A DNA stretch of 64,000 nucleotides from Candidatus Shapirobacteria bacterium (GCA_018062705.1 JAGORQ010000001.1:21624-85623), one strand, 5' to 3'. Shown: positions 4,987-54,086, numbered from the stretch's first letter. Notes: generated by a model not told the origin, from the letters alone. Made by a program: numbers and translations.

Positions 4987-5229
4987 GGGTTTGGGCAAGC
5001 CAAACCCCTACTTTACCTTGGCTGTATCGGGTTTGGGCAAGCCAAACCCCTACTTTACTTTGGCAACTTTGGGTTTGGGCAAGCCAAACCCCTACTTTAC
5101 CTTGGCTGTATCGGGTTTGGGCAAGCCAAACCCCTACTTTACCTTGGCTGTATCGGGTTTGGGCAAGCCAAACCCCTACTTTACCTTGGCTGTATCGGGT
5201 TTGGGCAAGCCAAACCCCTACTTTACTAA
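4987..5229. repeat. Tandem array of ~5.8 copies of a 42-bp REP-like unit (GGGTTTGGGCAAGCCAAACCCCTACTTTACCTTGGCTGTATC), each with a GGGTTTGG/CCAAACCC hairpin
   Basis: Exact 42-nt periodicity starting at 4987, 5029, 5071, 5113, 5155 and 5197. ORF-track entries 4951..5229 and 4991..5257 are translations of this array. Confidence 0.85.
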
Positions 5230-5231
5230 AA

Positions 5232-5711
5232 TTGTATATGCGACTTTTAAACGGTAGGCATACTATTCGACGACAAAAAGTAGATTACACAAAACCAAAT
5301 TGTTTTATGGTGACCATTTGTGCCAATAAATTTGGTTATTATTTCGAAAAATATCCAGAATTAAAAAAGATTATTGAAGATAATTTATTAAAAATTTCTG
5401 GTGACTTTGCCAATACTAGGTTAGGTGAATATGTGGTAATGCCAAACCATATCCACTTTATATTGACAATGAGATATCAAATAAAAAATGTAAGTTTGGG
5501 GAAAATTATTGCCACATTTAAATCGAGAGTCGTAACTGACTGGCTAAAAGTAATAAACGATCAAAAACTTAATTCTTTAGCAAAAATTTGGCAAAGAAAT
5601 TATCACGAACATATTATTAGAAATAAAGATGAGTTTGAAGCTTACACTAAATATATCGTTAATAATCCAAAAAATTGGCTAAATGATTCATACCACGTTT
5701 CGGTAAAGTAG
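5232..5711 (+). CDS. IS200/IS605-family Y1 HuH transposase, REP-associated tyrosine transposase (RAYT)-like
   Basis: HuH motif (PNHIHFIL), N-terminal KPNCFMVTIC motif, and C-terminal YHEHIIRN...YIVNNPKNW typical of TnpA_REP/RAYT. The gene is flanked by REP copies in inverted orientation. Confidence 0.75.
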   Translation: MYMRLLNGRHTIRRQKVDYTKPNCFMVTICANKFGYYFEKYPELKKIIEDNLLKISGDFANTRLGEYVVMPNHIHFILTMRYQIKNVSLGKIIATFKSRVVTDWLKVINDQKLNSLAKIWQRNYHEHIIRNKDEFEAYTKYIVNNPKNWLNDSYHVSVK

Positions 5712-5748
5712 GGGTTTTGCTTGCCCAAACCCGACTTACTTTAAAAAA
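5711..5748. repeat. Single inverted copy of the 42-bp REP unit immediately 3' of RAYT1
   Basis: ggggttttgcttgcccaaacccgacttacttt is the reverse complement of the unit core GGGTTTGGGCAAGCCAAACCCCTAC, with 2 mismatches. Confidence 0.6.
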
Positions 5749-5978: not shown

Positions 5979-5985
5979 AAAAAAA

Positions 5986-6015
5986 ATTACTAATTACTAA
6001 TTAATAATTACTAAT
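5986..6015. repeat. (TTACTAAT)n microsatellite immediately upstream of the ATG of the minus-strand gene 5736..5978
   Basis: attactaattactaattaataattactaat. Confidence 0.4.
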
Positions 6016-7487: not shown

Positions 7488-7515
7488 TTAGAGACGCGCC
7501 ATGGTGCGTCTCTAC
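7488..7515. repeat. Family B palindrome (TTAGAGACGCGCC ATG GTGCGTCTCTAC) just 3' of the map stop
   Basis: Perfect inverted repeat. The outer GAGACGC/GCGTCTC stems are shared with 7 other copies. Confidence 0.6.
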
Positions 7516-7525
7516 GGAGAAGATA

Positions 7526-8284
7526 TCAGAGTCGAGTTAATACCTCACAACCATTTTCGGTTATCAAAACAGTATGTTCGAATTGGGCAGAAAGTGAACC
7601 GTCATGAGTGCGGATAGTCCAACCATCATTTTTGTCCAACACTACTTGCCAGTCGGAAGAAGCGTTGACCATTGGCTCAATGGTAAAAATCATGCCTGGT
7701 TTTAAGACAGTGTCGTCGGAACGGTTGGCAAAATGATAAACGAACGGATCTTCGTGAAACTTGACTCCAACGCCGTGCCCACCTAGGTCGCGGACGATAC
7801 CATAACCATATTGACGAAGATAGTTGTCGATAACTTTACCGACACAATCATTGATGTTTTTGCCAGGTCGGAGTGCCGAAATCGCTAAGTCTAGTGATTG
7901 GCGGGTCCGATCGAGCAATTGGGAGGCTTTTTTATCCACCTGACCAACCGGATATGAGGCGGAGGTGTCGCCATAATAACCGTTTAAAATAGTGGTGATA
8001 TCGAGGTTGATGATATCGCCGGTTTTGAGGATATCTTTGGGGGACGGGATACCGTGGCAAACCACATTATTGATAGAAGTGCAGAGGCTTTTGGGGAAGC
8101 CATTGTAATTTAGTGGGGCAGGAATTGCGCCATGATCAAGAATAAATTTATGGACAGCAGTATTTAGTTCTTCAGTTGAAGTCCCCTCTCTGACAAACTT
8201 TGAGGCAAAAATTAGAGTCTCGGCTGCCAATTTAGAAGATTTTCTAATTCCCTCGATTTGTTCGGGAGTTTTGATAATAATCAT
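7526..8284 (-). CDS. map: Methionine aminopeptidase type I
   Basis: Conserved metal-binding D/D/H/E/E context (DIINLDIT, HGVG, FTIEPM, EHTV). Confidence 0.9.
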   Translation of the reverse strand: MIIIKTPEQIEGIRKSSKLAAETLIFASKFVREGTSTEELNTAVHKFILDHGAIPAPLNYNGFPKSLCTSINNVVCHGIPSPKDILKTGDIINLDITTILNGYYGDTSASYPVGQVDKKASQLLDRTRQSLDLAISALRPGKNINDCVGKVIDNYLRQYGYGIVRDLGGHGVGVKFHEDPFVYHFANRSDDTVLKPGMIFTIEPMVNASSDWQVVLDKNDGWTIRTHDGSLSAQFEHTVLITENGCEVLTRL

Positions 8285-10392: not shown

Positions 10393-10881
10393 ATTGTCGA
10401 GGATCGAGTTGATTTCGGTATTCAAATCGCCGGTGAAAGAAGCGGTTAGAACAGAAACCTGATCTTTTTGAATTTTTATTCGTTGAATCAAGCTGATTTT
10501 GACTTTTTGATTGTAGTAATAGCCAGATAAATTGGCCGTATATAAATTTTCTGAAGATTTTCTTTTATCATCGGTGATGGTGAGAGAAGGGATGGCTGAA
10601 GTAGCGCCAGCAATTAAACTATCAGTATATTTGGCTGGAGCAGTAGCTTCAGATGACTGATTGATAGTTTTGACTATTTGGGGTTTGATGCCACTAGTAT
10701 TTTTTTCTAATTTTAAAGCTACGTTTTTGGCCTCAACAGCAGACCAGCCAGCAGGAAGTTTGTTGATTGAGTCAGAGGAAACCTGAGGCTCAGCTCGACG
10801 AAACATTGTTGGACGACGATAGATTAAATAACCACAAAGTACACCTAGAACTAAAAGAGAAGGGAGGATATATTTTTTCAT
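10387..10881 (-). CDS. Hypothetical N-terminally anchored protein, co-transcribed with the sortase
   Basis: 164 aa with a single N-terminal TM. Its start overlaps the sortase stop at the same nucleotide. Confidence 0.4.
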   Translation of the reverse strand: MKKYILPSLLVLGVLCGYLIYRRPTMFRRAEPQVSSDSINKLPAGWSAVEAKNVALKLEKNTSGIKPQIVKTINQSSEATAPAKYTDSLIAGATSAIPSLTITDDKRKSSENLYTANLSGYYYNQKVKISLIQRIKIQKDQVSVLTASFTGDLNTEINSILDNL

Positions 10882-12197
10882 TATTTGATAATTGAAGCTT
10901 TAACAATAATGCGAGAGTTAGGATAAGTGACACTACAAGTCATTAGGGCAATTTGATCACCAGTTGTCTTAATTGAGTCGACTTGGGATTTGTCGACAAA
11001 AAGCTTGTCGGTGATTTGGTAGGTTGATACCAAACCGTTATTTTCAGTCATGACTTTGTCACCAATATTTAGAGTAAATAACTGGCTAAAGACACCATAG
11101 CCATTGTGGCCGTAGTAGAGGTTGCCCTCACGTAAAACTTCGTTGTGACCGACAATAAATTGATCGCCAATTTTTTGGGGTAAATAAATTGGTTGGTTTA
11201 AATTAAGGGAGGGAATAATTAGCGCTTGATTAGTGTCGAGAGTATTTCCTGAAGGAAGTTTCTCGGTGGAATAGACCACTTCGGCAGTAGCTGCTAATTC
11301 AGAAGAAGTGCCGAGAACTGATCCACCATAACTATTTTTGATGCCATCAATTAGCGGATTGTTGTTTGTTCTAGCTCCTAGTACTCGAAAACCACCAACA
11401 TTTTGGTTGGTACAAACTACATTACTCGGGCTACCACCACGACAACCGTTTTGGGCCTGAACATAAAAACAATATTTGCCACCAGGATTGAGGGCCTTGA
11501 CAGTGTAAGTGGTGACGTTACCAACATTGGGATCACCATATATATAGTTGCCGGTAGTTGGGCCATAACCAACAGCATAGCTAGTGTGATTGCCAGGAGC
11601 ATGATTCCAAGTTAACAAAACTTTACCTCCACCGAGAGCAATGGCCACTAAATTTTGAGGTGCACCGGGATCTGAATCATTGCATGAAGGAGGATTGTTG
11701 TTCGAATTATTTGAAGGTTGAGGGGTTTGATTCTCCACCTGCGCCGTTGGCTCTGGCGAGACAAAGGGTGTGACTGTGGGAATTATTTGACAACTCTCAG
11801 TCTGTTCACAATTTAGAGTTGGAGTAACTGTTGGGGTATTTGATGGAGAAATAGTAGCTGTAGGGCTGGGATTTGAAGTAATCGTGGGTGAGGGAGTTTT
11901 CGTGGCCGTTGGGGTACGAGTGGGTGTGTTGGTAGGGCGACAATCATCATCGTCATGACGACCATGACGGCCATGTTGATTATCGTCACAATCATCATCG
12001 TGATGATTTGAAGTGGGGGTAGGGGTTGGGGTGCGAGTAGGTGTAGGTGTGCGAGTTGAAGTTGGGGTTCGAGTTGGGGTGGGAGAATTCCATTTTGCCT
12101 CAGAAACAATTTTATTCTGAAAAAATTTAGAATTAATAAAGAACACTTCGATTATTGCTAGTGCAACAATCAGACCTGCTTTGATTGTTTTTACCAT
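10881..12197 (-). CDS. Sortase-family transpeptidase with an N-terminal TM, a Pro/Thr-rich linker containing HDDDDC motifs, and an FN3-like domain
   Basis: C-terminal sortase fold with the active-site motif ALMTCS (TLxTC). (TPTRTPTP)n low-complexity region. FN3-like block ([20 protein letters not shown]...YCFYVQAQN). Confidence 0.7.
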
Positions 12198-12296: not shown

Positions 12297-12324
12297 GTAG
12301 AGACGGGGCATGCCCCGTCTCTAC
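12297..12324. repeat. Family B palindrome (GTAGAGACGGGGCATGCCCCGTCTCTAC), intergenic
   Basis: Perfect 28-nt palindrome. Confidence 0.6.
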
Positions 12325-15531: not shown

Positions 15532-15559
15532 GTAGAGACGTTGCGCGCAACGTCTCTAC
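15532..15559. repeat. Family B palindrome (GTAGAGACGTTGCGCGCAACGTCTCTAC) between convergent genes; possible bidirectional terminator
   Basis: Perfect palindrome 12 nt after the DEAD helicase stop, followed by an A-run on + and a T-rich stretch on -. Confidence 0.55.
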
Positions 15560-28859: not shown

Positions 28860-29503
28860 TGTCGTATTTACAAATAAATGATTTTGATGCGGAGTTAGAG
28901 CAGTTGCAGTTGAAACACGGCAATCCGAGTATCTGTTCAATAAATGGAGCCGGTTGTATTGATAACCCAAGACTATTTCTTTTGTTTATGAATCCGACAG
29001 CAAAAAATGTATCGGCCAACAAAAACTGGAGAGGTTTGAGAGCGCCATGGATTGGGACAAAAAATATTTGGAAACTGCTACTTAAACTTAATTTAATAGA
29101 CAAGGAACAATTTGATAAAACTCAGAAATTAAAACCGACTGAGTGGACAACGGATTTTGCAGAAAGCTTATATAAAACTTTGGCTAATAATAAAATCTAT
29201 TTAAGCAATTTGGCTAAGTGTACTCAGGATGATGCCAGACCACTAAAGAATGCCGTGTTTAGGGAATATTTAGAGCTAACTAAAAAAGAAGTTTATAAAG
29301 TGTCAGCAATAAATATAGTTTCGTTTGGAGTGCAAGTGAGCGAAATTTTACTGGGAAAGAAAATTGAATTGAAAAGTTCGACTGAAGAAGAATTGGTGAT
29401 TGAGGACAAAAAGTTTAATATCTATCCAACTTATTACCCGGTGGGACAAGGAATGAGAAATATGGGTAAAGCGGTGGAGCGAATATCAGCGCTTCTTGGG
29501 TAA
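28859..29503 (+). CDS. Uracil-DNA glycosylase superfamily protein (family 4/5-like)
   Basis: UDG-like motif block (LFLLFMNPTA...) and overall ~210-aa size. The assignment is tentative. Confidence 0.4.
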   Translation: MSYLQINDFDAELEQLQLKHGNPSICSINGAGCIDNPRLFLLFMNPTAKNVSANKNWRGLRAPWIGTKNIWKLLLKLNLIDKEQFDKTQKLKPTEWTTDFAESLYKTLANNKIYLSNLAKCTQDDARPLKNAVFREYLELTKKEVYKVSAINIVSFGVQVSEILLGKKIELKSSTEEELVIEDKKFNIYPTYYPVGQGMRNMGKAVERISALLG

Positions 29504-30397
29504 ATCGTGGTGGAAGATTACTTTGCCAAGAGCTAGAGTCATGGGACGGTTTTTCATGGAGTCAAGAATTATTTTATTTAAATTATCGCGGTACTCAGCG
29601 GTGTCGGCAGACTCAAAATCGGGAATTAGTTCGGGGGAATTTTTTTGAAGATACTCGTAAAGTCGGGTTTTGATTTTGGAACTTTGATTGAGATGTTCAA
29701 ACCAAACTTCGGAAACTCCGGCATGCTGGAGCGCATCGAGCAATTCATTAATGGCTTTTTTATTATTGACAAAATGTGGCAGAATTGGACCGACAAAGGC
29801 GTAAGTGGAAACACCATTATCGTGTAATTGTTTTAGTGCTTCAATGCGAGCAGAAATAGGTGGTGCTAGAGGTTCGAGAAAGCGAGCCACTTGGTCGTCG
29901 AGTGTGGTGACAGTAAAACCAACTTGAACTTTTTTTAATTTTTTTAAAATATCAATATCTTGAGTAACCAAGGGTGATTTTGTTTGAATGCCAATTGCTC
30001 CTTCATAACCAAAATCAACAAAAACTTGAAGACATTGGCGGGTGATATGGTATTTGGCTTCGAGACCGGTGTAGGGGTCGGTGACCGAACTAAAAAAGAT
30101 AAAACCAAAATCTTTTGATGATTTAATTTTATTTTGGTGTGTAGAGACGCCAGGCCTGGCGTCTCTACGAGACAGCTTGTTTAATTCATTTTTTAATAAT
30201 TCAGGCGCGTTGGTTTTGACATCTAAATAACTCCCCCACTCTTCATCGGGGTGATGCCAGCGGGCTATTTGGGCGGCATAGCAGTACGTGCAACCGAGCT
30301 GGCAACCGCCGTAGGAATTAACTACCCAATCGGCACCAGGCAGACCGGATTTGGTGAGGATTGTTTTGGCGGTAATTTCGTTAATTTTGAGGAGCAT
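29486..30397 (-). CDS. Radical SAM protein of the spore-photoproduct-lyase/DNA-photolyase-like (SplB) type, carrying an in-frame family B palindrome insert
   Basis: The CxxxCxxC cluster (CQLGCTYC) near the N-terminus and the overall architecture fit SplB-like rSAM. Residues SRRDARPGVST are encoded by the palindrome at 30141..30168. Confidence 0.55.
   Translation of the reverse strand: MLLKINEITAKTILTKSGLPGADWVVNSYGGCQLGCTYCYAAQIARWHHPDEEWGSYLDVKTNAPELLKNELNKLSRRDARPGVSTHQNKIKSSKDFGFIFFSSVTDPYTGLEAKYHITRQCLQVFVDFGYEGAIGIQTKSPLVTQDIDILKKLKKVQVGFTVTTLDDQVARFLEPLAPPISARIEALKQLHDNGVSTYAFVGPILPHFVNNKKAINELLDALQHAGVSEVWFEHLNQSSKIKTRLYEYLQKNSPELIPDFESADTAEYRDNLNKIILDSMKNRPMTLALGKVIFHHDLPKKR
30141..30168. 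repeat. Family B palindrome (GTAGAGACGCCAGGCCTGGCGTCTCTAC) in-frame inside the radical SAM gene
   Basis: Perfect 28-nt palindrome. The minus-strand reading frame passes through it without a stop. Confidence 0.6.
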
Positions 30398-31588
30398 TTA
30401 TTTTTTGGTAGTTTTGTTAATATAATACTTTTTATTTTTAACTTTATCGGGTAGTAACGATTCGGTGGTGTATTTTTCATACCCTTTGCCGTAGCCGAGG
30501 TCTTTCATCAGATCGGTAGGAGAATTGCGTAAATTCATCGGAATAGGCAAGTTTCCATAGGTCTTGATATCCGCTTGGGCTAAGCGGAGGCCGTCGTAGG
30601 CGGAGCGGTTTTTGGGGGAGAGGGCCAGATAGGTAACCCCATGGGCCAGGTTGATGGCACATTCAGGATAACCAATTTGGGTGACAGCTTGAAAGACTTG
30701 GTTGGCCAACATTAAGGCAGAAGAGTTGGCTACTCCAATATCTTCGGAGGCAAAAATCACCATCCGCCGGGCAATAAACTTGGGGTCCTCCCCCGCTTCA
30801 ACCATCCGTGCCAAGTAATAAAGAGCCGCATCGGGATTTGAGGCACGCATACTTTTAATGAAGGCACTAATAGTGTTGTAGTGTTCCTCGCCTTTTTTGT
30901 CGAAACGTAAATAAGAATTTTGGAGAGTGGATTTGAGAGTGTCGATAGTGATTTTTTGGTAGAGAGTAAAGGCGTTGTCCAACATGGTGATGGCTTGGCG
31001 GGCATCACCGTTGGCCATTTGAATTAGCCAATCTTTGGCTTTTTTGTCAATCCCCCCTTTAGTCCCCCCTTTGACAAGGGGGGAAAGAATATCTATACAG
31101 CGTTTTATTATTTGACCCATTTCATCGTCGGATAATTCTTTGAGAACAAAGACACGGCAGCGGGATAATAATGGAGAAATGACCTCGAAACTGGGATTTT
31201 CGGTGGTGGCACCGATGAGAGTTAGTAGACCTGATTCAACATAAGGCAGGAGAAAATCTTGTTGGGCTTTGTTGAAGCGATGAATTTCGTCTAAAAATAA
31301 TATTTTTTTGTTGAGGCCGGGCTGACCTGACCCAATAATTTTTTTGATATCGTCTTTACTAGCAGAAACAGCTGATAACTCATATAAATCGGCCTGGGAT
31401 TCGTGGGCAATAATTTTGGCGAGAGTAGTTTTACCCACACCGGGTGGGCCCCAAAAAATCATCGAGAAAATCTGATGATTGTCGATAGCCATTTTTAGAG
31501 GCTTCCCCTCCCCGACTAAATGAGTTTGGCCGACAAAGTCGGCTAGGGATTTTGGTCTTAATAGTGAAGCTAAAGGTTGAGTTAACAT
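30398..31588 (-). CDS. rarA: Replication-associated recombination protein A (AAA+ ATPase MgsA/RarA)
   Basis: Walker A (GPPGVGKTT), Walker B ([10 protein letters not shown]), and the characteristic C-terminal MgsA helical domain. Confidence 0.85.
31049..31090. repeat. Degenerate family E-like hairpin (AATCCCCCCTTTAGTCCCCCCTTTGACAAGGGGGGAAAG) in-frame in rarA (encodes ~[14 protein letters not shown])
   Basis: Shares AATCCC...CCCCCTTTGA(C/A)(G/A)AAGGGGG with family E copies. Confidence 0.3.
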
Positions 31589-38198: not shown

Positions 38199-38346
38199 CG
38201 TCATTGCGATCCGCCAGTTGGCGGAGTGGCAATCCCAACGAGATTGCTTCGTCCCCTTCGGCTACGCTCAGGGTCCTCGCAATGACCCTTCGACTTCGCT
38301 CACAATCCTCGTTATAACCCTTCGACTTCGCTCAGGGTTATAACGT
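38199..38346. repeat. Family C composite element in a divergent promoter region; includes a duplicated CTTCGACTTCGCTCA(G/C) submodule
   Basis: gtcattgcga...ggcaatcccaacgagattgcttcg...cctcgcaatgacc, then two copies of cttcgacttcgctca. Confidence 0.5.
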
Positions 38347-38351
38347 ATTAT

Positions 38352-39614
38352 ATGGTTATGAAAATATGGTGGATTTTGCTAATTTGTCTGGGAATTAGAC
38401 TTATAGGAATTAATCAATCGTTGTGGCTAGATGAGGCAATATCGGCCAATGTAGCCAAGAATTTTTCCTACCAAGAAATACTGACAAAATTTAGTCCGGG
38501 AGATTTTCACCCGCCAGGATATTATCTGATGTTGAAAACTTGGGGAAGTATTTTTGGTTATTCGGAAATTAGCTTAAGACTAACGTCGGTAATATTTAGT
38601 TTAATAACGATTTATGTGGTTTATTTACTGGGAGGATCGGCTGGTGCAATGCTGGTTGGATTTAATCCCCTGTTAGTGTATTACTCGCAAGAAGTGAGAA
38701 TGTACTCGATGGTGACCATGTGGCTAACTTTGGCGATCTATTTTTTGATAAAAGAAAAATATTGGCTAGTGGGACTATTTTTTGGATTGGCGTTTGGGAC
38801 GTTTTACGGGTCGGTATTTTTGATGGTGGCGGTGTTTATCTATTTAATTGTTAATAAAAAATATAAACCGGCAGGAATCGTAACAATAGTTCCATTGATA
38901 TTCTTGCTAATTATATGGCCATTGATGAGTCAACAACTTCAAAATTCAAAGGTGATGTTGGCCACAGTGTCGGGCTGGAGCCTTGTGCTAGGAAAAGTAA
39001 ATCTGAAAAATTTATTGTTGATTCCGATGAAATTTACGTCGGGGAGAATCAGCTTTTATCCAAAGATTATTTATTATGTTTTGGCGGGAGGATGGTCTAT
39101 ATTTGTGTTTTTTAAAGTGCTTAGTGCTAAGTTCAAAGTGCAAAGCAAAATCTATAGTTTTTTGTTTTGGACTACGTTGGCAATCGGGGTGGTGTTTTCG
39201 ATATTTACCCCTATGTTTGAGTATTTTAGATTTTTGTACTTGATACCAATTATGGCGCTAGCAATAGGGAAAAATAAACTGATAGCCGGAGGGTTTTTGG
39301 CGTGGAGTTTGGTGTATGTACTAAACCCGAGTTTTTATCGAGAAGATTGGAAGAGTGTGGTGGCAGAGTTATCGAAAGACCAACCAGTTTACATGATCAA
39401 ATCATTTGAAGATCCGGTGAGTTATTACAATCTAGATTTAAGATATAAGACGTATGATTTAAGAATAGAACCGAAAGAAAATAGAATAACGGTAATACCC
39501 TATGGTGAGGAGATACATGGAGTGAACCATGTTAAATTGATGGAAAAACAGGGTTATAAAATGGTTGACCAAAAAAATTATCGAGGATTGGTGAGTGAAT
39601 CTTGGAGTCGGTGA
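38352..39614 (+). CDS. GT-C fold glycosyltransferase (GT39/GT83, PMT/ArnT-like) membrane protein
   Basis: DE motif in the first periplasmic loop (LWLDEAISANV) and about 11 TM helices. A family D repeat lies in-frame near the C-terminus. Confidence 0.6.
   Translation: MVMKIWWILLICLGIRLIGINQSLWLDEAISANVAKNFSYQEILTKFSPGDFHPPGYYLMLKTWGSIFGYSEISLRLTSVIFSLITIYVVYLLGGSAGAMLVGFNPLLVYYSQEVRMYSMVTMWLTLAIYFLIKEKYWLVGLFFGLAFGTFYGSVFLMVAVFIYLIVNKKYKPAGIVTIVPLIFLLIIWPLMSQQLQNSKVMLATVSGWSLVLGKVNLKNLLLIPMKFTSGRISFYPKIIYYVLAGGWSIFVFFKVLSAKFKVQSKIYSFLFWTTLAIGVVFSIFTPMFEYFRFLYLIPIMALAIGKNKLIAGGFLAWSLVYVLNPSFYREDWKSVVAELSKDQPVYMIKSFEDPVSYYNLDLRYKTYDLRIEPKENRITVIPYGEEIHGVNHVKLMEKQGYKMVDQKNYRGLVSESWSR
39432..39472. 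repeat. Family D element in-frame inside the GT39 gene (encodes LDLRYKTYDLRIEP)
   Basis: tagatttaagatataagacgtatgatttaagaatagaacc. Confidence 0.55.
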
Positions 39615-41564: not shown

Positions 41565-41598
41565 TAATTACTAATTACTAATTACTAATTACTAATTT
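41565..41598. repeat. (TTACTAAT)n microsatellite in the divergent promoter region between the rluB-like gene and the nuclease gene
   Basis: taattactaattactaattactaattactaattt. Confidence 0.4.
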
Positions 41599-42495: not shown

Positions 42496-42513
42496 GTTTT
42501 GTATAATACCCAA

Positions 42514-42900
42514 ATGGCGAAGATTTTTGTAATACACCCAGAATGTATTAATATAGATTTAAGACTCAATTTACATTTACAATACAGACCACACCAGCTT
42601 GATGTTTTATCTCAAATTAAAACCATAACAAAAAATGCAAGGAACCTAGTTGTGATAGATGATTATGATTTAGAAAATACCCCAAAAGATGGTGATGTAT
42701 ATTTATTGGAAGAAGGTCCAACTCGACTGGTAGCAGGCTGTATAGTCAGAAAAGATGAGGCAATATTCATTGGTGCTTACACTGAAAAATGTGTTTCAGA
42801 AGCTGCCAATGTCGCAAGACGTGCTGGTGCAATCGTAACTATTAATAGAAAGCTAACTGTGCCACTAGATCCTAGATTATATTCTGAAATATTAAAATAG
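42514..42900 (+). CDS. Small isochorismatase-family-like (cysteine hydrolase-like) protein
   Basis: IGAYTEKCVSEAANVARRAGAIVTI resembles the isochorismatase catalytic-Cys block, but the protein is short (~128 aa). Confidence 0.3.
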   Translation: MAKIFVIHPECINIDLRLNLHLQYRPHQLDVLSQIKTITKNARNLVVIDDYDLENTPKDGDVYLLEEGPTRLVAGCIVRKDEAIFIGAYTEKCVSEAANVARRAGAIVTINRKLTVPLDPRLYSEILK

Positions 42901-43496: not shown

Positions 43497-43549
43497 ATCC
43501 CTCTGTCCTGCGGTCGCCGGACCTCTCCCTTTGAAGAAAGGGAGAAATA
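43497..43549. repeat. Family E two-hairpin element immediately 5' of the exonuclease ATG
   Basis: aatccctctgtc-[ctgcggtcgccggac]-ctctccctttgaagaaagggagaaataac. Confidence 0.55.
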
Positions 43550-44191: not shown

Positions 44192-45415
44192 TCAAGAGAT
44201 GTTGCCGAAGCCAATAGCGTCATGAACAGCTTCGCCCAGGCCCAGCATTTTGGCTGGAGTGAGAACGAAACTACCGTATTTTTGGGTAACTTTATCAATG
44301 GCTAAATTTAGATTGATATGTTTTTTGATGTCACCAAATAGATCGAGTTGGAGGCTATTGTTTTGCGATAAATTGAAAAAAGTGACGGCTAAATTGGCCA
44401 CCGGAGAATGGTAAGGGGAGGATGACATAATTTTGTAAGCTCGACGATAGAGGTGGTAATCATCGGAAACTGGTTCGGGGTAAATAGCGCCGTGATGCCA
44501 AAACTGACGGTCGCGATAGAGTAGTGAAATATGGACACCACTGGCGGTATAACCATGACTTCTGAGGCGAAGACCGGCTTTGACAACTAGTTTGTGGAGA
44601 ATGGGTGAGAGTTCCTCGGGGGTACTAAGTGGTTTGGGGAGTGAATACATATGACCAAAACTTTTGCGGGCAAAATCAACATTATCAATTTCTAGGCCTC
44701 GAAGACGAAGATACCAATAATAGCCGTTAATGGAGTTAAAGGCATGATGGAGAATGTGGATTGGGGCATTATAAAAATCCATAACTGAAAAAATACCTGA
44801 GTGGTGAAGGTGGGTGGCGTTAGCTCGGGCAATACCAGTCAGATCGGTGAGTTCAAGTTTTTGATAAATTTCTAAATAGTTTTTGGAATTTATTTCATCT
44901 AGACCATCGGGCTTGTGAAGATTACTAGCAGTTTTGGCCAAAAAACGGTTTGGACCAATACCAACCGAGACAGTTAGCCAATCCCCGATTTCACTTTTTA
45001 TTTTTGACTTTATTTCTCGACCTATAAGGTGCAGGCCAATTTTGAGGCCGGGAAAATTTTGAAAATTAAGAGAAAATTCATCAATAGATTTGGCGGTATA
45101 GTCGGCAGTATAGTAGCTTAATAATTTGTGGAGTTTATGGTGGACAAAACGATATTTGTCGGGATCGGAAGTGAGAACAATTAAGTTGGGACAAAGCTTT
45201 TTGGCCTCAAAGATGCGAAAACCGGTTTTGATGCCGAGGGCTTTGGCCTCGACTGAAGGAGCAAGAATGCAACCGCGAGGACTGTCGTAGGCGGCCACAG
45301 CGATCGGCCGACCACGGAGGAGTGGATTAGCCTGTTGCTCGATCCGAGCAAAACAGGAATTTAAATCGACGTGCATAAAAGTCGATTGACATTGATTAAA
45401 ATCGAGATTAATCAT
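44192..45415 (-). CDS. dinB: DNA polymerase IV (Y-family)
   Basis: MHVDLNSCFARIEQ N-terminus and the ImpB/UmuC core motifs. Confidence 0.9.
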   Translation of the reverse strand: MINLDFNQCQSTFMHVDLNSCFARIEQQANPLLRGRPIAVAAYDSPRGCILAPSVEAKALGIKTGFRIFEAKKLCPNLIVLTSDPDKYRFVHHKLHKLLSYYTADYTAKSIDEFSLNFQNFPGLKIGLHLIGREIKSKIKSEIGDWLTVSVGIGPNRFLAKTASNLHKPDGLDEINSKNYLEIYQKLELTDLTGIARANATHLHHSGIFSVMDFYNAPIHILHHAFNSINGYYWYLRLRGLEIDNVDFARKSFGHMYSLPKPLSTPEELSPILHKLVVKAGLRLRSHGYTASGVHISLLYRDRQFWHHGAIYPEPVSDDYHLYRRAYKIMSSSPYHSPVANLAVTFFNLSQNNSLQLDLFGDIKKHINLNLAIDKVTQKYGSFVLTPAKMLGLGEAVHDAIGFGNIS

Positions 45416-45653
45416 TGGAGACTTCTTGGAGTTCCCAAAATAAATTGTCAGTGTTGAGACTTAACCGAAAAAAAGTCTGATTGGCAGTGACAGAGAAAAT
45501 GTGGAACAGAGTCTGCCCGCGACGGATAGTATGGTGGAGACCGATTTGAGAAACGGTGTAATCTACTCCACGCCAAAAAAATTTACGCGGACCAACCCGA
45601 TTGGTGGCGGAGTCGAAACTAGAGATGACAGAGATGGGAATTTTTAACTGCAT
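45408..45653 (-). CDS. Small hypothetical protein overlapping the dinB start by 8 nt
   Basis: 81-aa ORF translationally coupled to dinB. Confidence 0.35.
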   Translation of the reverse strand: MQLKIPISVISSFDSATNRVGPRKFFWRGVDYTVSQIGLHHTIRRGQTLFHIFSVTANQTFFRLSLNTDNLFWELQEVSND

Positions 45654-45698
45654 GATTTAAGAAGTAAGATTTAAGATGTATGAATAAAACAAAAAAAC
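45654..45698. repeat. Family D element abutting the start codon of the minus-strand small gene
   Basis: gatttaagaagtaagatttaagatgtatgaataaaacaaaaaaac. Confidence 0.55.
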
Positions 45699-45705
45699 AT
45701 AGGTC

Positions 45706-45735
45706 ATTCCCGCGGAGGCGGGAATCTAATTTTTT
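45706..45735 (+). terminator. 8-bp GC hairpin (ATTCCCGC GGAG GCGGGAAT) plus T-run; terminator-like with no obvious upstream + gene
   Basis: A similar hairpin attcccgccttcgcgggaat occurs at 7389..7408. Confidence 0.3.
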
Positions 45736-45737
45736 AA

Positions 45738-45805
45738 ATCTCCCTCGGCTGCGCCGCATCCCTCATCTCTGCTGAGACATCTTCGACTTTGATGAAAGAG
45801 GGACT
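45738..45805. repeat. Divergent family E-like element
   Basis: aaatctccctcggctgcgccgcatccctcatctctgctgagacatcttcgactttgatgaaagagggact. Confidence 0.3.
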
Positions 45806-46024
45806 ATAAGGTAAATTTATACTATACCGAAGAAAAGCCGAAGTCAAGAGATATTAGATTTCAAAAACTTTGAAAATATACAATAAGTACGAAACATATG
45901 AGGATAAGTAATACTATCTTAGTTGCACAAACTAAAAAAGAGGTATAATACCTGCTGTAGAGAAGTTTCTGTCAAGCAAAGTTAGTTGAAAAGAGGTCGC
46001 TACAGATTATTAATTTTTACTAAA

Positions 46025-46372
46025 ATGGTAAAAAAATTGTATGTCGGCGGCTTGTCATTTTCGACAACTGATGACACTTTGAGAGCGGCATTCGCTCAAG
46101 CTGGAACCGTCGTTTCAGCAGTAGTTATTAAAGATAAATTCTCCGGTCAATCAAAAGGCTTTGGATTTGTGGAAATGGATTCGGAAGAGTCCGCACAAGC
46201 AGCTATTGATATGTGGAATGAGAAAGAATTGGATGGTCGCACCGTTAAGGTGAACGAGGCTCGTCCAATGGAAGAGAGACCCCCACGACGTGATAATTAC
46301 TCTCGTGGTCCTAGCCGACAAGGTTTCGGTGGTGGTTCACAAGGTGGTTACGGTGGTGGTTCAAGATACTAA
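46025..46372 (+). CDS. RRM-domain RNA-binding protein with a Gly-rich C-terminal tail
   Basis: RNP-2 (LYVGGL) and RNP-1 (KGFGFVEM). The promoter TATAAT at ~45936 predicts a ~85-nt 5' UTR that contains an inverted repeat. Confidence 0.8.
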   Translation: MVKKLYVGGLSFSTTDDTLRAAFAQAGTVVSAVVIKDKFSGQSKGFGFVEMDSEESAQAAIDMWNEKELDGRTVKVNEARPMEERPPRRDNYSRGPSRQGFGGGSQGGYGGGSRY

Positions 46373-46421
46373 AATCCCTCTGTCAGCGTTGCTGACATCT
46401 CCCTTTGAAGAAAGGGAGAAC
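46373..46421. repeat. Family E two-hairpin element immediately 3' of the RRM gene stop
   Basis: aatccctctgtc-[agcgttgctgacat]-ctccctttgaagaaagggagaacc. Confidence 0.55.
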
Positions 46422-46423
46422 CT

Positions 46424-46452
46424 AAAAAAACCCGTCGCAAGACGGGTTTTTT
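46424..46452. terminator. Rho-independent terminator, bidirectional (A-run, CCCGTC GCAA GACGGG, T-run)
   Basis: aaaaaaacccgtcgcaagacgggtttttt. Confidence 0.7.
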
Positions 46453-46475
46453 GATGGATTTTAAAATGTACCCAA

Positions 46476-46501
46476 AGAGACGCATTGCAATGCGTCTCTA
46501 C
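46476..46501. repeat. Family B palindrome (AGAGACGCATTGCAATGCGTCTCTAC) overlapping the RAYT2 stop codon
   Basis: Perfect palindrome. The minus-strand TAG of RAYT2 lies inside it. Confidence 0.6.
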
Positions 46502-47040
46502 AATTTGGAAAATAATCTGTCCTTTTGCCAGTTTTTGGGGTTGTTTCTGATGTAGTATTTGATTTGAGTTAACCGTTTTTCGTCGTGAATAATTTCGTCA
46601 TAAAAACGAGGTTGCCAGGCGAAATAAATATTATGTTTTTTGCAGATGCGTTTGACGGCACCTTTGAAGGATTTGATGGTTTGGGAAATTGTTTGGATTG
46701 ATTTGGAATTTATATCTTGATAAAAATCTGGGTGGTTCCGATGGCTATGGATAAATATTGGCGTTGGGGAACTTTCGTGTAGAGACGCATGGCAATGCGT
46801 CTCTACAGGGATATCCCGAATGGTGATTAGCAGGTGAACATGGTTGGGCATGACCACCCAGGGGTTGATAATTAAAGATTTTCGAATAGAGATGGTTTTG
46901 ATTAATTCATCAACAGCAATTTGACCCCTATCCGATAATTCCATTTTTCCGTTGATAATTTTGCCAAAGAAATTGTTATGGTTGTAGGTGCAGATGGTGA
47001 TGAAGTAAAAGCCAGGTGTGGAGTAGTCCCAACCATTCAA
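46498..47040 (-). CDS. IS200/IS605-family HuH Y1 transposase (RAYT-like), second copy, carrying an in-frame family B palindrome
   Basis: YFITICTYN N-terminal motif, HuH (PNHVHLLIT), C-terminal YYIRNNPKNW. Residues VETHCHASLH are encoded by the palindrome at 46779..46806. Confidence 0.7.
   Translation of the reverse strand: MNGWDYSTPGFYFITICTYNHNNFFGKIINGKMELSDRGQIAVDELIKTISIRKSLIINPWVVMPNHVHLLITIRDIPVETHCHASLHESSPTPIFIHSHRNHPDFYQDINSKSIQTISQTIKSFKGAVKRICKKHNIYFAWQPRFYDEIIHDEKRLTQIKYYIRNNPKNWQKDRLFSKL
46779..46806. repeat. Family B palindrome (GTAGAGACGCATGGCAATGCGTCTCTAC) in-frame inside RAYT2
   Basis: Differs by 1 nt from the copy at 46476. Confidence 0.6.
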
Positions 47041-47094
47041 TCGATTGGATTCAGTGCGATATTTTTCGGCAAAGCGGAGAACAAATAAATTGTA

Positions 47095-47652
47095 CTATTT
47101 TTGGCAGGCAGTGGGTGACCAGAGGCCGAGATTGTTCGATTCAGCCTGTTTTTGGGAATCTTTGAACTGTGTTTGGAATTTGTAGGGAATGCGATAGGTG
47201 TATTCATGACCATAACCATTCGCAATGATTTTTTGATTAACTAGGGTGCCGTCGGGCAGATAAACGTAGCGTAGTAGTCGGCCGTATTTGTCGAGATTGC
47301 CTTGGGTTGGGTCGGATACCAATATTACACTTTGATTTTCCAAAAGTTTTTTGGTGAACTCTGAGGCTTCCTTTCCAAAACACTGGACCGGTTTGCGCGG
47401 GTCGACCACTTCGGGAGTGTCGACACCAATTAGGCGGACCGTTTCGATTTTATTATCGATAATAACTTTGATGGTGTCACCATCAACGACCCGGTCGACT
47501 TTTACTGGTGCACCTGAAATTGAGGCGGTGATTGACGGTGTAACAGTGGCAACTATTTTTGTCGGCGTGACGGACGGAAATAAACTCTTAACTAATTTAG
47601 CCTGACTGCGAGGGAGAAAAAGGAGAAGGAAGGAGAGGAGAAGAATTTTCAC
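47095..47652 (-). CDS. Secreted thermonuclease (SNase/micrococcal nuclease family)
   Basis: Signal peptide, VVDGDTIKV...RLIGVDTPE, and YG...R catalytic residues. Confidence 0.8.
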   Translation of the reverse strand: MKILLLSFLLLFLPRSQAKLVKSLFPSVTPTKIVATVTPSITASISGAPVKVDRVVDGDTIKVIIDNKIETVRLIGVDTPEVVDPRKPVQCFGKEASEFTKKLLENQSVILVSDPTQGNLDKYGRLLRYVYLPDGTLVNQKIIANGYGHEYTYRIPYKFQTQFKDSQKQAESNNLGLWSPTACQK

Positions 47653-48548
47653 AATTTACTAACTAACAAATTTTTGGCTTCGTTGATGAATTTTACATCA
47701 ATATTTTCAATAACGTCGTTGGTCGAATGATAATTTTTCATGACTAAACTTTGATCGTTTTGGAGCCAGTAAGTTTTGGATGAATATTTTTCAAGATTTC
47801 GGAATTGAAGTACAAGTTTTAAATCAGTTTTAGTTAAATTTGGACTGCTTAACCCAATACCATCAACTACAAAAATTTGCTTGGCCGACTCGAGAATATC
47901 TTGATGCTTTGATTCAAAAACACGAAAACCGTGACCATCATAATCAACAATATCTTCGGGATACTCGTCGTAGGAAATTTCCTCATTACCGGCAAAAATA
48001 AATAGATTTTTTGTTAGAGAATTTGGATCTGATTTAATAATGTCAACCAGCATGGCGACAGCACAGCCATTGTCCATGGCGCCAGGACCAATAATGGAAT
48101 CGTGATGGGCAAATATTATGTTTTGTGGATTGATGATGTTGCCAACTAAAATATTTTTGGTGAAAAAATCTTCTTTGACGACAGTGATATTGCCATTGAT
48201 AACCTTGGCATTGTTTATTATTTCTTGATCGATCCGGGATATTGCGAGCGATGGTTGGTCGTAAAAAGACACTACACTGATATTGTCTGCATGAGGACTA
48301 GAATGAATAAATTCTTTGGAAACTATTTGGCCACTACTAAAACTACAACCCAGACAAGGAACGGCTTCACCATCTACCAACAACTCGGCTTTGGTGATTC
48401 GAGGAACGGAAGACTCAAAAGGTTCTTCAACAAAGTTGATGTTTGAACTTTTTAATTCGTCAATAATTACTTGCGCCCCCTTGGATTCATCTATACCGTA
48501 GCGAGGAGAGATGGAGGTTAGCTTTTGTAAAAAACTTAGATCAAACAT
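47649..48548 (-). CDS. M28-family Zn-dependent peptidase-like protein
   Basis: HHDS and GAMDNGCAVA motifs. Confidence 0.45.
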   Translation of the reverse strand: MFDLSFLQKLTSISPRYGIDESKGAQVIIDELKSSNINFVEEPFESSVPRITKAELLVDGEAVPCLGCSFSSGQIVSKEFIHSSPHADNISVVSFYDQPSLAISRIDQEIINNAKVINGNITVVKEDFFTKNILVGNIINPQNIIFAHHDSIIGPGAMDNGCAVAMLVDIIKSDPNSLTKNLFIFAGNEEISYDEYPEDIVDYDGHGFRVFESKHQDILESAKQIFVVDGIGLSSPNLTKTDLKLVLQFRNLEKYSSKTYWLQNDQSLVMKNYHSTNDVIENIDVKFINEAKNLLVSKL

Positions 48549-53460: not shown

Positions 53461-53496
53461 TGCCTGATTGTAACATTTATGAAAAAACTTGTACCA

Positions 53497-53522
53497 AGAG
53501 ACGTCATATATGACGTCTCTAC
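53497..53522. repeat. Family B palindrome (AGAGACGTCATATATGACGTCTCTAC)
   Basis: Perfect palindrome, intergenic. Confidence 0.6.
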
Positions 53523-53613
53523 AAAAATATTCTAGAGTCTTCGCTAAAACAAAACAAAACAAACAGAAGAGTTTAAATTGAAGATAAATACCTAGGTTTA
53601 GTTTTATGCTGAA

Positions 53614-53638
53614 AGAGACGCACATAGTGCGTCTCTAC
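53614..53638. repeat. Family B palindrome (AGAGACGCACATAGTGCGTCTCTAC) 4 nt from the stop of the minus-strand kinase gene
   Basis: Near-perfect palindrome with one central unpaired nt. Second copy 92 nt from B7. Confidence 0.6.
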
Positions 53639-53642
53639 AAAA

Positions 53643-54086
53643 TTAAATTATTTCTTTAACTAGTTTTTCGACTGGTAAGGTGGCGTCGAGGCTTTTGTCG
53701 ATAAGTCCGGCACGTTTAAGCTCGGATTGATAATCAAAATTACCATCAAGATAAAGTGATAGATCTTCTTTGCCGGACTTTAAATTAATTTGATTACGAC
53801 GAGTGGCTTCGGTGACAGTTATTTCGAGTTGATAAATTTTGAAACCAAGTTTTTTGGCTTCGCGAAGATCATCGAGAGTTAAGTAATCAGTGTTGGCAAT
53901 TAACAAAATATCTTTTTGAGCAAAAGCATCTTTGAGGATTTTGGGGATTTGATCGGCATATTTTTCGTGAACATCGGAAGTTGTTAGTTCTTCGTCAATT
54001 TCCCGATATTGGATATTTTTGGACCGGAGATGTGTGGCGAGAGTGGTTTTACCCGAGAGTGACGCGCCGATGATGATGGTTTTCAT
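53643..54086 (-). CDS. P-loop NTPase, small kinase-like protein
   Basis: Walker A (GASLSGKTT) in a 147-aa protein. Confidence 0.5.
   Translation of the reverse strand: MKTIIIGASLSGKTTLATHLRSKNIQYREIDEELTTSDVHEKYADQIPKILKDAFAQKDILLIANTDYLTLDDLREAKKLGFKIYQLEITVTEATRRNQINLKSGKEDLSLYLDGNFDYQSELKRAGLIDKSLDATLPVEKLVKEII

What the first reader, a model, noticed from the sequence alone, without database searches (positions are those of the whole stretch)
46476..47040. RAYT2 is bracketed by and internally carries family B palindromes; each of the two RAYTs is tied to a different repeat family
RAYT1 (5232..5711) is flanked by the 42-bp family A REP array and an inverted A copy. RAYT2 (46498..47040, about 45% identical in the conserved blocks) has a family B palindrome overlapping its stop, another in-frame in its body, and a bidirectional terminator just outside. 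Pairing one RAYT with one REP class is the pattern known from Pseudomonas and E. coli REP/RAYT systems. Here it would make RAYT2 the candidate mobiliser of family B.
Basis: partly seen in the sequence, partly recalled or inferred. Interest (0 to 1): 0.6.

Follow-up and report, generated by a model that had tools for sequence, protein, structure and literature searches.

The report
REP transposase gene carrying its own palindrome
This is a domesticated hairpin-cutting transposase gene (a RAYT/TnpA_REP of the published subclass 2.4) that carries one copy of its own 28-base palindromic repeat in-frame inside the gene and another across its stop codon; the layout is real and non-random, but it was described in 2018, so this is a new example in an uncultivated bacterium, not a new kind of thing.

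Summary
RAYT2 (46498..47040, minus strand; conserved reading frame to 47082) is an HUH/Tyr Y1 protein. One family B palindrome (GTAGAGACG-N10-CGTCTCTAC) lies in-frame in its body at 46779-46806. A second lies across its TAG stop at 46474-46501. A bidirectional terminator sits at 46425-46452. The window holds eight family B copies where 0.01 are expected. "Bracketed" overstates it, because no copy lies upstream of the gene.

Family A (seven copies) occurs only at RAYT1, so the one-RAYT-one-REP pairing holds within the window.

All of this matches TnpA_REP subclass 2.4 (Bertels group 4) of Quentin et al. 2018 (PMC6006769): motifs NHVH, WQ and YIRNNP, a variable loop after the HUH motif, "double foot" REPs, and REPs inserted in-frame within the gene. 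In 74 homologous genes from many phyla, 33 carry an intact palindrome in the same loop, in both open frames.

RAYT2 is not an obvious pseudogene. Ka/Ks against a syntenic orthologue is 0.16. An independent assembly has a GTG start where the window has GTT.

Less documented: the palindromes stay perfect through the four central bases and diverge symmetrically between copies.

Verdict: new member of a known kind, modest interest.

The parts
46498..47082 (-). RAYT2 coding frame. The mechanical ORF runs from TTG at 47040 to the stop at 46498. The conserved N-terminal peptide LRFAEKYRTESNR is encoded upstream, from 47082. HUH = H67-V68-H69 (46842-46834). WQ = W142-Q143. The catalytic Tyr motif YIRNNP begins at 46554 (180-aa numbering).
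   Evidence: ORF. Pfam Y1_Tnp. Motif positions. Invariant P65, H67, H69, W142, Q143, Y163 and N167 across 38 homologues. AlphaFold mean pLDDT 82.8. Top Foldseek hit 4ER8 (TnpA_REP). Ka/Ks 0.21/1.31 against the syntenic orthologue.
47080..47082 (-). Ancestral start codon position. It reads GTT in the window. It reads GTG in an independent Logan assembly of SRR11088367, the only mismatch in 3048 nt, and GTG in the orthologue L082.
46779..46806 (-). Family B double-foot REP inside RAYT2, in frame 0. It encodes V79-L87 (VETHCHASL). One central mismatch breaks the otherwise perfect 28-nt palindrome. It lies in a low-confidence loop between the HUH strand (residues 67-74) and helix 117-135.
46474..46501 (-). 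Family B REP overlapping the RAYT2 stop. The gene strand reads GTAGAGACGCATTGCAATGCGTCTCTTT, with a single foot. The TAG stop (46500-46498) lies within the GTAG foot.
46425..46452 (.). Bidirectional intrinsic-terminator-like hairpin: a 12-bp stem with an A run on one side and a T run on the other. It lies between the convergent RRM gene and RAYT2.
7488..7515 (.). Dispersed family B copy. Left foot TTAG, one G-T pair, intergenic, about 10 nt downstream of the stop of ORF 7526..8284 (-).
12297..12324 (.). Dispersed family B copy. Perfect 28-nt double-foot palindrome with centre GGGCATGCCC, in a divergent intergenic region.
15532..15559 (.). Dispersed family B copy. Perfect palindrome (16 bp per arm counting the TT/AA flanks), between two convergent ORFs and 11-12 nt from each stop.
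30141..30168 (-). Family B copy in frame inside a radical-SAM (SPL-like) ORF, 29486..30397 (-). It is translated as RRDARPGVST.
53495..53522 (-). Dispersed family B copy. Single foot on the minus strand, centre TCATATATGA.
53612..53638 (-). Dispersed family B copy. 23-nt core with a 3-nt loop and a single foot on the minus strand, 4 nt after the stop of ORF 53643..54086 (-).
5232..5711 (+). RAYT1, 159 aa, with motifs NHIH, WQ and YIVNNP and no loop insertion. Its TAG stop lies within the GTAG foot of the inverted family A copy.
4987..5221 (+). Family A array: six direct copies of GGGTTTGGGCAAGCCAAACCCCTAC at a 42-nt period. On the minus strand each reads GTAG followed by a GGG-based stem, which is a canonical long REP.
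5708..5732 (-). Inverted family A copy (1 mismatch) overlapping the RAYT1 stop.

Best explanation
RAYT2 and family B form a REPtron of the TnpA_REP subclass 2.4 / RAYT group 4 type.

Shown here:
- RAYT2 is a single-domain HUH/Tyr (Y1) protein with all catalytic motifs intact.
- Its cognate repeat is a 28-nt "double foot" REP, GTAG-AGACG-N10-CGTCT-CTAC.
- One copy lies in-frame in the loop between the HUH strand and the next helix. Another forms the 3' end of the gene and supplies its TAG stop.
- Six further copies are scattered over the window. Most lie just downstream of genes and one lies in-frame in a radical-SAM gene.

Inferred, by analogy with the characterised E. coli, Stenotrophomonas and Marinomonas enzymes:
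- The protein binds the folded single-stranded hairpin when DNA is transiently single-stranded at the replication fork.
- It reads the GTAG foot and the conserved stem base. The upper stem is free to vary.
- It cuts and rejoins at a CT or CA dinucleotide next to the hairpin, and so spreads or rearranges family B copies in trans.

The in-gene copy is most simply a tolerated passenger in a disordered surface loop. It is kept identical to neighbouring copies by the same process that homogenises the family.

RAYT1 with the GGG-stemmed family A is a second, independent REPtron.
For: Motifs and length:
- NHVH, WQ and YIRNNP match the subclass 2.4 signature NH[IFV]H / WQ / YIxNNP.
- The length of 180-194 aa compares with a family median of 194.

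Fold:
- The core is confident. Residues of about 75-115 are low confidence and sit between strand 67-74 and helix 117-135.
- The best structural match is E. coli TnpA_REP bound to a REP hairpin, 4ER8, with E = 9.6e-07. The profile search also hits 4ER8.

Repeat family:
- There are 8 copies against 0.01 expected.
- The hairpins are stable as ssDNA, -10 to -14 kcal/mol with z from -6.8 to -8.5.

Generality:
- 120 protein homologues show VETxxxASL or CRDVxxxVST in the same loop. These are the two open frames of one DNA palindrome.
- At DNA level, 33 of 74 homologous genes from many phyla carry an intact double-foot palindrome in the loop, 24 in frame 0 and 12 in frame 1.
- Close relatives have an upstream copy, an in-loop copy and a copy at the stop, all with the same centre.

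Pairing:
- In-gene and flanking copies differ by 1 mismatch or less in 10 of 15 loci, against 2% in cross-locus comparisons.

Selection and intactness:
- Ka/Ks is 0.16 against a syntenic orthologue.
- A GTG start is present in an independent assembly.

Literature:
Against: - No subclass 2.4 / group 4 enzyme has been tested biochemically. Only groups 2 and 3 have, so cleavage and mobilisation are inferred.
- In the window sequence itself the ancestral start codon reads GTT. The next start, TTG at 47040, would remove 14 conserved residues, including a nearly invariant Arg.
- The in-body copy carries a palindrome-breaking mismatch.
- The six dispersed copies all have different central 10-mers. 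This argues against a recent burst from one master copy.
- NCBIfam's REP_Tyr_transpos model scores 46.9 bits, below its cut-off of 80.
- Only 64 kb of the genome could be examined, so genome-wide copy numbers are unknown.
Confidence: 0.8

Rival explanations
1. RAYT2 is a decaying relic in this genome. Family B copies persist only because the host uses the hairpins as terminators or 3'-end mRNA stabilisers, and there is no ongoing mobilisation.
For: - The window has GTT where the orthologue and another assembly have the GTG start.
- The in-body palindrome has a mismatch.
- All dispersed copies differ in their centres.
- Most dispersed copies lie 4-13 nt after stop codons or between convergent genes. 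This is the position reported for REPs that act as RNA elements (PMC3733652).
Against: - The ORF is otherwise uninterrupted and all catalytic residues are present.
- Ka/Ks is 0.16 over the whole frame, including the N-terminal 14 codons.
- The GTT/GTG difference is one base and the only mismatch in 3 kb between two assemblies, so it may be a strain variant or a consensus error.
- The gene is syntenic and intact in a relative.
Confidence: 0.2
2. The in-gene palindrome is functional, not a passenger. RAYT2 binds the hairpin in its own gene or mRNA to autoregulate, or the copy serves as a protected master copy that keeps transposase and repeat genetically linked.
For: - A REP sits at the same loop position across many phyla, in either open frame, often in 2-3 copies.
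- Palindromy inside the coding region is kept by double changes: 99% of cells are paired and 10 of 14 pairs show changes on both sides.
- The in-gene copy matches local flanking copies.
Against: - 41 of 74 homologues lack an intact in-loop palindrome, and RAYT1 has none, so it is dispensable.
- REPs of this type also sit in-frame in unrelated genes, such as the radical-SAM gene here and those in PMC3733652.
- A permissive disordered loop beside a local source of REPs explains the recurrence without any function.
Confidence: 0.15
3. Family B palindromes are double-stranded binding or recognition sites for a dimeric protein, such as a regulator or a restriction-modification enzyme (GAGACG/CGTCTC resembles a type IIS site). 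Their link to RAYT2 would then be incidental.
For: The dyad symmetry extends through the central 4 nt, which a hairpin does not need. 40 of 48 unique 28-mers are perfect, and the innermost pairs are complementary in 92-96%.
Against: - The central 10 nt differ between copies, so there is no fixed recognition sequence beyond the stem base.
- The GTAG foot is the defining feature of REPs recognised by TnpA_REP.
- The same element accompanies RAYT genes across unrelated phyla.
Confidence: 0.04
4. The palindromes at RAYT2 are chance inverted repeats.
For: None beyond their short length.
Against: Shuffles give 0.00 matches to the 22-mer and 0.01 to the gapped pattern, against 2 and 8 observed. The same element recurs in homologous genes.
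Confidence: 0.01

Closest known systems
TnpA_REP subclass 2.4 (Quentin, Siguier, Chandler and Fichant 2018, PMC6006769), which equals RAYT group 4 of Bertels et al. 2017 (PMC5581495)
   Same: The motifs NH[IFV]H, WQ and YIxNNP. A length of about 194 aa. A variable insertion between beta3 and alphaC. No C-terminal tail domain. Both "double foot" and canonical long GTAG REPs. [quoted passage not shown] A patchy distribution over many phyla.
   Different: The host appears to be an uncultivated Microgenomates/Shapirobacteria-like bacterium, judged from the names on the nearest homologues. That group is not mentioned in the 2018 paper. The stop codon here is supplied by the REP foot. Two REPtrons of the two REP types coexist within 42 kb.
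E. coli REPtron: TnpA_REP/RayT (YafM), PDB 4ER8, group 2 / subclass 2.2
   Same: The HUH/Y1 fold (top Foldseek hit). A GTAG-footed hairpin substrate. REPs flanking the gene. A single-copy gene that behaves like a vertically inherited one.
   Different: The E. coli enzyme has DHLH and YIHYNP motifs, a C-terminal extension, bulged REPs, and no REP inside the gene. Identity is about 19%. The residues that read GTAG in E. coli (E100, H101, R104) are E-H-R in RAYT1 but D-E-H in RAYT2. That comparison is my reading of the alignments, with residue roles taken.
IS200/IS605 TnpA (IS608, ISDra2)
   Same: The same Y1 HUH fold and the same use of a hairpin plus a guide tetranucleotide.
   Different: Those elements are multi-copy with identical copies and defined left and right ends. 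RAYT2 is single-copy in the window, syntenic with an orthologue at 72% identity, and under purifying selection.
In-frame palindromic insertions in genes: Rickettsia RPEs and GTAG/CGTC REPs inside ORFs (Di Nocera et al. 2013, PMC3733652)
   Same: Short palindromic repeats translated in-frame within otherwise normal proteins, often ones involved in DNA repair or replication. The radical-SAM/SPL-like copy here fits that pattern.
   Different: Here the host gene is the presumed mobilising enzyme itself, and the site of insertion recurs across the family.

Membership tests
TnpA_REP subclass 2.4 / RAYT group 4 | HuH motif NH[IFV]H | tested here: met
   P65-N66-H67-V68-H69. H67 and H69 are invariant in 38 homologues. 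The signature is from PMC6006769 Table 1.
TnpA_REP subclass 2.4 / RAYT group 4 | W motif WQ and Y motif YIxNNP | tested here: met
   W142-Q143 and Y163-I-R-N-N-P. W142, Q143, Y163 and N167 are invariant.
TnpA_REP subclass 2.4 / RAYT group 4 | Variable-length insertion between beta3 (HuH) and alphaC, and no C-terminal tail domain | tested here: met
   The AlphaFold model shows strand 67-74, then residues of about 75-115 at pLDDT 47-65, then helix 117-135. The protein ends 13 residues after NNP. The loop is hypervariable in the alignment.
TnpA_REP subclass 2.4 / RAYT group 4 | Canonical 5' GT[AG]G REP within 1 kb of the gene, of the "double foot" type (GT[AG]G ... C[TC]AC) | tested here: met
   46779-46806 is a double foot and 46474-46501 is a single foot. 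Four of the eight window copies are double foot.
TnpA_REP subclass 2.4 / RAYT group 4 | [quoted passage not shown] | tested here: met
   46779-46806 encodes V79-L87 between H69 and Y163. The same holds in 33 of 74 homologues.
TnpA_REP subclass 2.4 / RAYT group 4 | Placement inside the subclass in a phylogeny or MCL clustering with reference members | not tested
   Reference sequences of the 2018 study were not available here. The assignment rests on motifs, architecture and REP type.
RAYT / TnpA_REP in general | Y1 HUH fold like 4ER8 | tested here: met
   Foldseek rank 1 is 4er8_A, with E = 9.6e-07 and TM 0.53/0.58. The profile search against PDB sequences hits only 4er8_A, with E = 7.8e-08.
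RAYT / TnpA_REP in general | Curated sequence models: Pfam PF01797 and NCBIfam NF047646 REP_Tyr_transpos | tested here: inconclusive
   Pfam Y1_Tnp scores 27.3 bits against a cut-off of 23, so it is met. NCBIfam NF047646 scores 46.9 bits (E = 2.5e-12) against a cut-off of 80, so it is not met at the curated threshold. RAYT1 scores 67.4, also below the cut-off.
RAYT / TnpA_REP in general | Single-copy, vertically inherited, under purifying selection (domesticated and not IS-like) | tested here: met
   RAYT1 and RAYT2 are the only two Y1 genes in the window and share 25% identity. The orthologue sits in conserved synteny, peptidase M28 - RAYT - RRM - IMS - LUD. Ka/Ks is 0.16. Whole-genome copy number could not be checked.
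RAYT / TnpA_REP in general | Sequence-specific binding and cleavage of the cognate single-stranded REP at a CT/CA dinucleotide | not testable with these tools
   This needs biochemistry. It has been done only for group 2 and 3 enzymes (PMC8266576).
REP family (classical definition) | High copy number dispersed through the genome (about 100 or more per genome) | tested here: inconclusive
   Family B has 8 copies in 64 kb, 6 of them away from RAYT2. Family A has 7 copies, all at RAYT1 and none dispersed. The rest of the genome was not available.
REPIN (Bertels and Rainey) | Two REPs in inverted orientation separated by a short spacer, forming one long hairpin | tested here: not met
   No inverted doublets of family B occur in the window. 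The two neighbouring copies at 53495 and 53612 have the same orientation. Inverted single-foot doublets do occur inside the gene in relatives L095 and L105.
IS200/IS605 insertion sequence | Multiple near-identical copies with left-end and right-end subterminal hairpins | tested here: not met
   The window holds no second copy. NCBIfam transpos_IS200 gives no hit for RAYT2 and 18.5 bits (cut-off 55) for RAYT1. A syntenic orthologue exists at 72% identity.

The most novel reading that the evidence does not exclude
The double-foot REPs are maintained as perfect palindromes by arm-to-arm copying, not merely selected as hairpins.

Evidence for symmetry beyond a hairpin's needs: I ascertained 28-mers only on their outer 9 bp. 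Of the 48 unique sequences, 40 are perfect right through the four central bases, which must form the loop of any hairpin. Copies differ from one another by symmetric double changes even inside the RAYT reading frame.

This points to a templated process. One candidate is quasipalindrome template switching. Another is fold-back synthesis primed from a RAYT nick at the foot, resembling parvoviral terminal resolution by HUH Rep proteins. Under either, each new centre variant arises in one step, and the in-gene copy could act as the protected local master copy.

This would also explain why 16-mer counting found few repeats around group 4 RAYTs.
Probability: 0.25. Interest if true: 0.55.

Novelty: new member of a known kind. 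Interest (0 to 1): 0.3.

Why it matters
The locus extends a published but biochemically untested class of domesticated HUH transposases (subclass 2.4 / group 4) to a small-genome uncultivated lineage. It offers a compact test case: two REPtrons of the two REP types, 42 kb apart, whose specificity could be cross-tested in vitro.

The wider data gathered here sharpen an open question about how REPs evolve. The repeats stay perfectly symmetric through the loop while their centres diverge, even inside a protein-coding gene. If a templated copying step is responsible, REP diversification would be a one-step process. K-mer based surveys would then systematically undercount this class of repeat.

Tried and rejected
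- Chance palindromes: rejected by shuffles.
- A third RAYT in the window, suggested by synteny with L082, which has a 228-aa Y1 gene next to the PDDEXK gene: the six-frame motif scan found only two, and ORF 42499..42900 is unrelated.
- RAYT2 as a clear pseudogene because no canonical start precedes the conserved N-terminus: weakened. The orthologue and an independent assembly have GTG at that codon, and Ka/Ks is low.
- Known RNA families or tRNAs explaining the hairpins: no Rfam hit at gathering score and no tRNA.
- Dispersed family A copies: none with a 13-mer at 2 mismatches or fewer beyond chance-level hits, and no double-foot GGGG version.
- My first gene-finding regular expression matched nothing and was replaced.
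The metagenome scan and two protein look-ups supplied the close relatives.
- The rest of this genome could not be fetched. Only a 3-kb Logan contig was returned for the window's own protein, so genome-wide counts were not possible.

Full report
**What is in the sequence**

The minus-strand ORF 46498..47040 (180 aa, TTG start) is a Y1 HUH protein. It scores 27.3 bits on Pfam Y1_Tnp against a cut-off of 23.

Two near-identical palindromes are associated with it.
- AGAGACGCATTGCAATGCGTCTCT lies at 46476-46499. On the gene strand it reads GTAG-AGACGCATTGCAATGCGTCT-CTTT, so the TAG stop (46500-46498) is part of the GTAG foot.
- GTAGAGACGCATGGCAATGCGTCTCTAC lies at 46779-46806. It is in frame and is translated as V79-ETHCHAS-L87.

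A terminator-like hairpin with a 12-bp stem, an A run on one side and a T run on the other, lies at 46425-46452. It sits between RAYT2 and the convergent RRM-domain gene.

The gapped pattern AGAGACG-N(2-30)-CGTCTCT occurs eight times in the window, against 0.01 in shuffles.
- Four copies carry GTAG/CTAC on both sides: 12297, 15532, 30141 and 46779.
- Four carry an intact foot on the minus strand only: 7488, 46474, 53495 and 53612.
- The stem base is constant. The central 10 nt differ in every dispersed copy yet remain self-complementary. Only the two RAYT2 copies share a centre.

No copy lies between RAYT2 and the upstream SNase gene, so "bracketed" is an overstatement.

**RAYT1 and family A**

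RAYT1 (5232..5711) has six direct family A units upstream, at a 42-nt period (4987-5221). One inverted unit (5708-5732) overlaps its TAG stop.

On the minus strand family A reads GTAG followed by a GGG-based stem with a 5-nt loop. No family A copy occurs elsewhere in the 64 kb.

RAYT1 and RAYT2 are 25% identical overall. They are the only two Y1 genes in the window. Within the window, each RAYT therefore sits with its own repeat class.

**Is RAYT2 an intact gene?**

All 38 aligned homologues share P65, H67, H69, W142, Q143, Y163 and N167 with RAYT2.

The homologues have about 14-20 more N-terminal residues. The window encodes that peptide (LRFAEKYRTESNR) in frame upstream of the TTG, but no canonical start codon precedes it. 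The codon at 47082-47080 is GTT.

Two sequences have GTG at that codon.
- The syntenic orthologue in L082, which is 72% identical and has the layout peptidase M28 - RAYT - RRM - IMS - LUD.
- An independent Logan assembly of run SRR11088367. It matches window 44813-47860 with a single mismatch, and that mismatch is exactly this base.

The full-length 194-aa gene therefore exists in the sampled population. The GTT is a strain variant or a consensus error. Ka/Ks against the L082 orthologue is 0.21/1.31 over 194 codons.

An AlphaFold model has mean pLDDT 82.8 and pTM 0.76, with a confident core. The stretch of about residues 75-115 is low confidence. It contains the REP-encoded peptide and lies between the HUH strand (67-74) and helix 117-135. 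The best structural match is E. coli TnpA_REP bound to a REP hairpin, 4ER8, with E = 9.6e-07. IS200/IS605 transposases follow. A profile search of PDB sequences finds only 4ER8.

**The in-gene palindrome is a clade-wide DNA feature**

Among 120 protein homologues, nearly all show VETxxxASL or CRDVxxxVST in the same loop after the HUH motif, sometimes two or three times. These are the two open frames of one DNA palindrome. The third frame contains TAG.

At DNA level I examined 80 loci from the genome collection. They span Bacteroidota, Cyanobacteria, Chloroflexota, Gammaproteobacteria, Ignavibacteria, Parcubacteria and others. Of 74 recognisable genes, 33 carry an intact double-foot palindrome between HUH and WQ, with 24 palindromes in frame 0 and 12 in frame 1.

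Twenty closer relatives from metagenomes show the full layout: an upstream copy, one or two in-loop copies and a copy at the stop, usually with the same centre. Two relatives (L095, L105) carry two inverted single-foot REPs with a spacer, all in frame.

Among 15 loci with both in-gene and flanking 28-mers, 10 have a flanking copy within one mismatch of the in-gene copy. Only 2% of cross-locus comparisons are that close.

**Comparison with what is known**

Quentin, Siguier, Chandler and Fichant (2018, PMC6006769) define TnpA_REP subclass 2.4, equated there with group 4 of Bertels et al. 2017. Its features are:
- motifs NH[IFV]H, WQ and YIxNNP;
- a median length of 194 aa;
- a variable beta3-alphaC insertion and no tail domain;
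- two REP types, canonical long with three G-C pairs at the stem bottom, and "double foot";
[quoted passage not shown] RAYT2 meets every one of these features. RAYT1 with family A fits the canonical long type.

Di Nocera et al. (2013, PMC3733652) had already reported GTAG REPs inside ORFs, often in repair genes. The family B copy in the radical-SAM/SPL-like ORF fits that report.

Bertels et al. found only moderately frequent flanking 16-mers for group 4.

Biochemistry exists only for group 2 and 3 enzymes. It shows GTAG acting as a guide, cleavage at CT or CA next to the hairpin, and variable roles for stem and loop (PMC8266576).

NCBIfam's REP_Tyr_transpos model matches RAYT2 at E = 2.5e-12, but below its curated cut-off (46.9 against 80 bits). 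I did not build a phylogeny with the reference sets.

**Mechanism**

Shown: the architecture, the intact catalytic motifs, the fold, the non-random repeat family, the specific gene-repeat association, and purifying selection.

Inferred, by analogy with the tested enzymes: RAYT2 binds family B hairpins in single-stranded DNA through the GTAG foot and the conserved stem base. It cuts and rejoins next to them, and acts in trans on the dispersed copies.

The in-gene copy is most simply a tolerated passenger in a disordered loop next to a local source of REPs.

The host probably also uses the hairpins at 3' ends of genes. Most dispersed copies lie 4-13 nt after a stop codon or between convergent genes.

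**What may go beyond the literature**

I ascertained 28-mers only on their outer 9 bp. Of 48 unique sequences, 40 are perfect palindromes to the centre. The two innermost pairs are complementary in 92-96% of cases, against 25% expected by chance. Yet these four bases form the loop when the strand folds.

For 35 unique in-gene copies, 99% of cells are paired. Ten of the 14 pairs show changes on both sides, including both innermost pairs. The outer seven pairs were part of the ascertainment, so only pairs 8-14 carry information.

The orthologous in-gene copies of L082 and L085 differ by one symmetric A-T to G-C change.

Hairpin stability alone does not explain symmetry in the loop. Quasipalindrome template switching, or fold-back synthesis from a RAYT nick, would explain it. 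This is speculation that the present tools cannot test. The 2018 paper offers only a central deletion between inverted REPs as the origin of the double foot.

**Verdict**

The system is a new member, in a Microgenomates-like genome, of a kind described in 2018. Interest is modest. The symmetry of the palindromes is the one lead worth following.

Noticed in passing
window 43497-43545 and 46373-46419; also 3608-3629 and 31063-31084: A third repeat ("family C"). AAATCCCTCTGTC is followed by a variable short hairpin and then the identical hairpin TCTCCCTTTGAAGAAAGGGAGA. It occurs twice downstream of genes, once right beside the RAYT2 terminator. Related hairpins TCCCCCTTTGACGAAAGGGGGA and TCCCCCCTTTGACAAGGGGGGA lie in-frame inside the MetRS-like ORF (SPFDERG) and the AAA-ATPase ORF 30398..31588 (SPLVKGG). 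There is no Rfam match.
   Followed up: partly
window 30141-30168: A perfect family B palindrome lies in-frame inside a radical-SAM / spore-photoproduct-lyase-like ORF (29486..30397, minus strand) and is translated as RRDARPGVST. I did not check against orthologues whether it is an insertion.
   Followed up: partly
window 47080: A single-base difference from an independent assembly of SRR11088367. It is the only mismatch in 3048 nt, and it converts the RAYT2 start codon GTG to GTT. RAYT2 is also in the same frame as the upstream SNase gene, separated by one TAG and four codons.
   Followed up: yes
window 5709-5711 and 46498-46500: Both RAYT genes end with a TAG stop that is part of the GTAG foot of a REP. 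Several close relatives also have a REP at or across the stop, and in some it is translated as a C-terminal CRDAINRVST tail.
   Followed up: partly
L095 1042-1195; L105 5284-5386: In some RAYT2 relatives the loop holds two inverted single-foot REPs with 3-nt loops, separated by an AT-rich spacer of about 55 nt in L105 and about 105 nt in L095, all in frame (VETHCVRL ... RDAxNASL). This is a REPIN-like doublet inside the gene and a possible precursor of the double-foot form.
   Followed up: partly
L082 7953-8639: The syntenic relative has an extra 228-aa Y1_Tnp gene between the RNase H-like and PDDEXK genes. At that position the window has an unrelated 133-aa ORF (42499..42900). The relative lacks the SNase gene that precedes RAYT2 here.
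   Followed up: partly
window 4423-4455, 5985-6015, 41565-41597: Short arrays (4.4-4.7 copies) of the heptamer TAATTAC/AATTACT occur at three sites. Two are in intergenic regions just upstream of gene starts.
   Followed up: no
window 38254-38338 and 12019-12080: A 32-nt tandem repeat (2.7 copies, CCCTTCGACTTCGCTCAGGGTCCTCGCAATAA) lies in the intergenic region before ORF 38352..39614. An 18-nt GTAGGGGTAGGGGTGCGA repeat (3.4 copies) lies inside ORF 10881..12197.
   Followed up: no
L045 3734-10311: A Salinibacteraceae locus shows the same behaviour with a GC-rich stem base. Seven GTAGGGGC-N12-GCCCCTAC palindromes with four different centres lie within the roughly 6 kb upstream of the gene and in the gene itself. 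The copies nearest the RAYT gene share the centre of the in-gene copy.
   Followed up: partly
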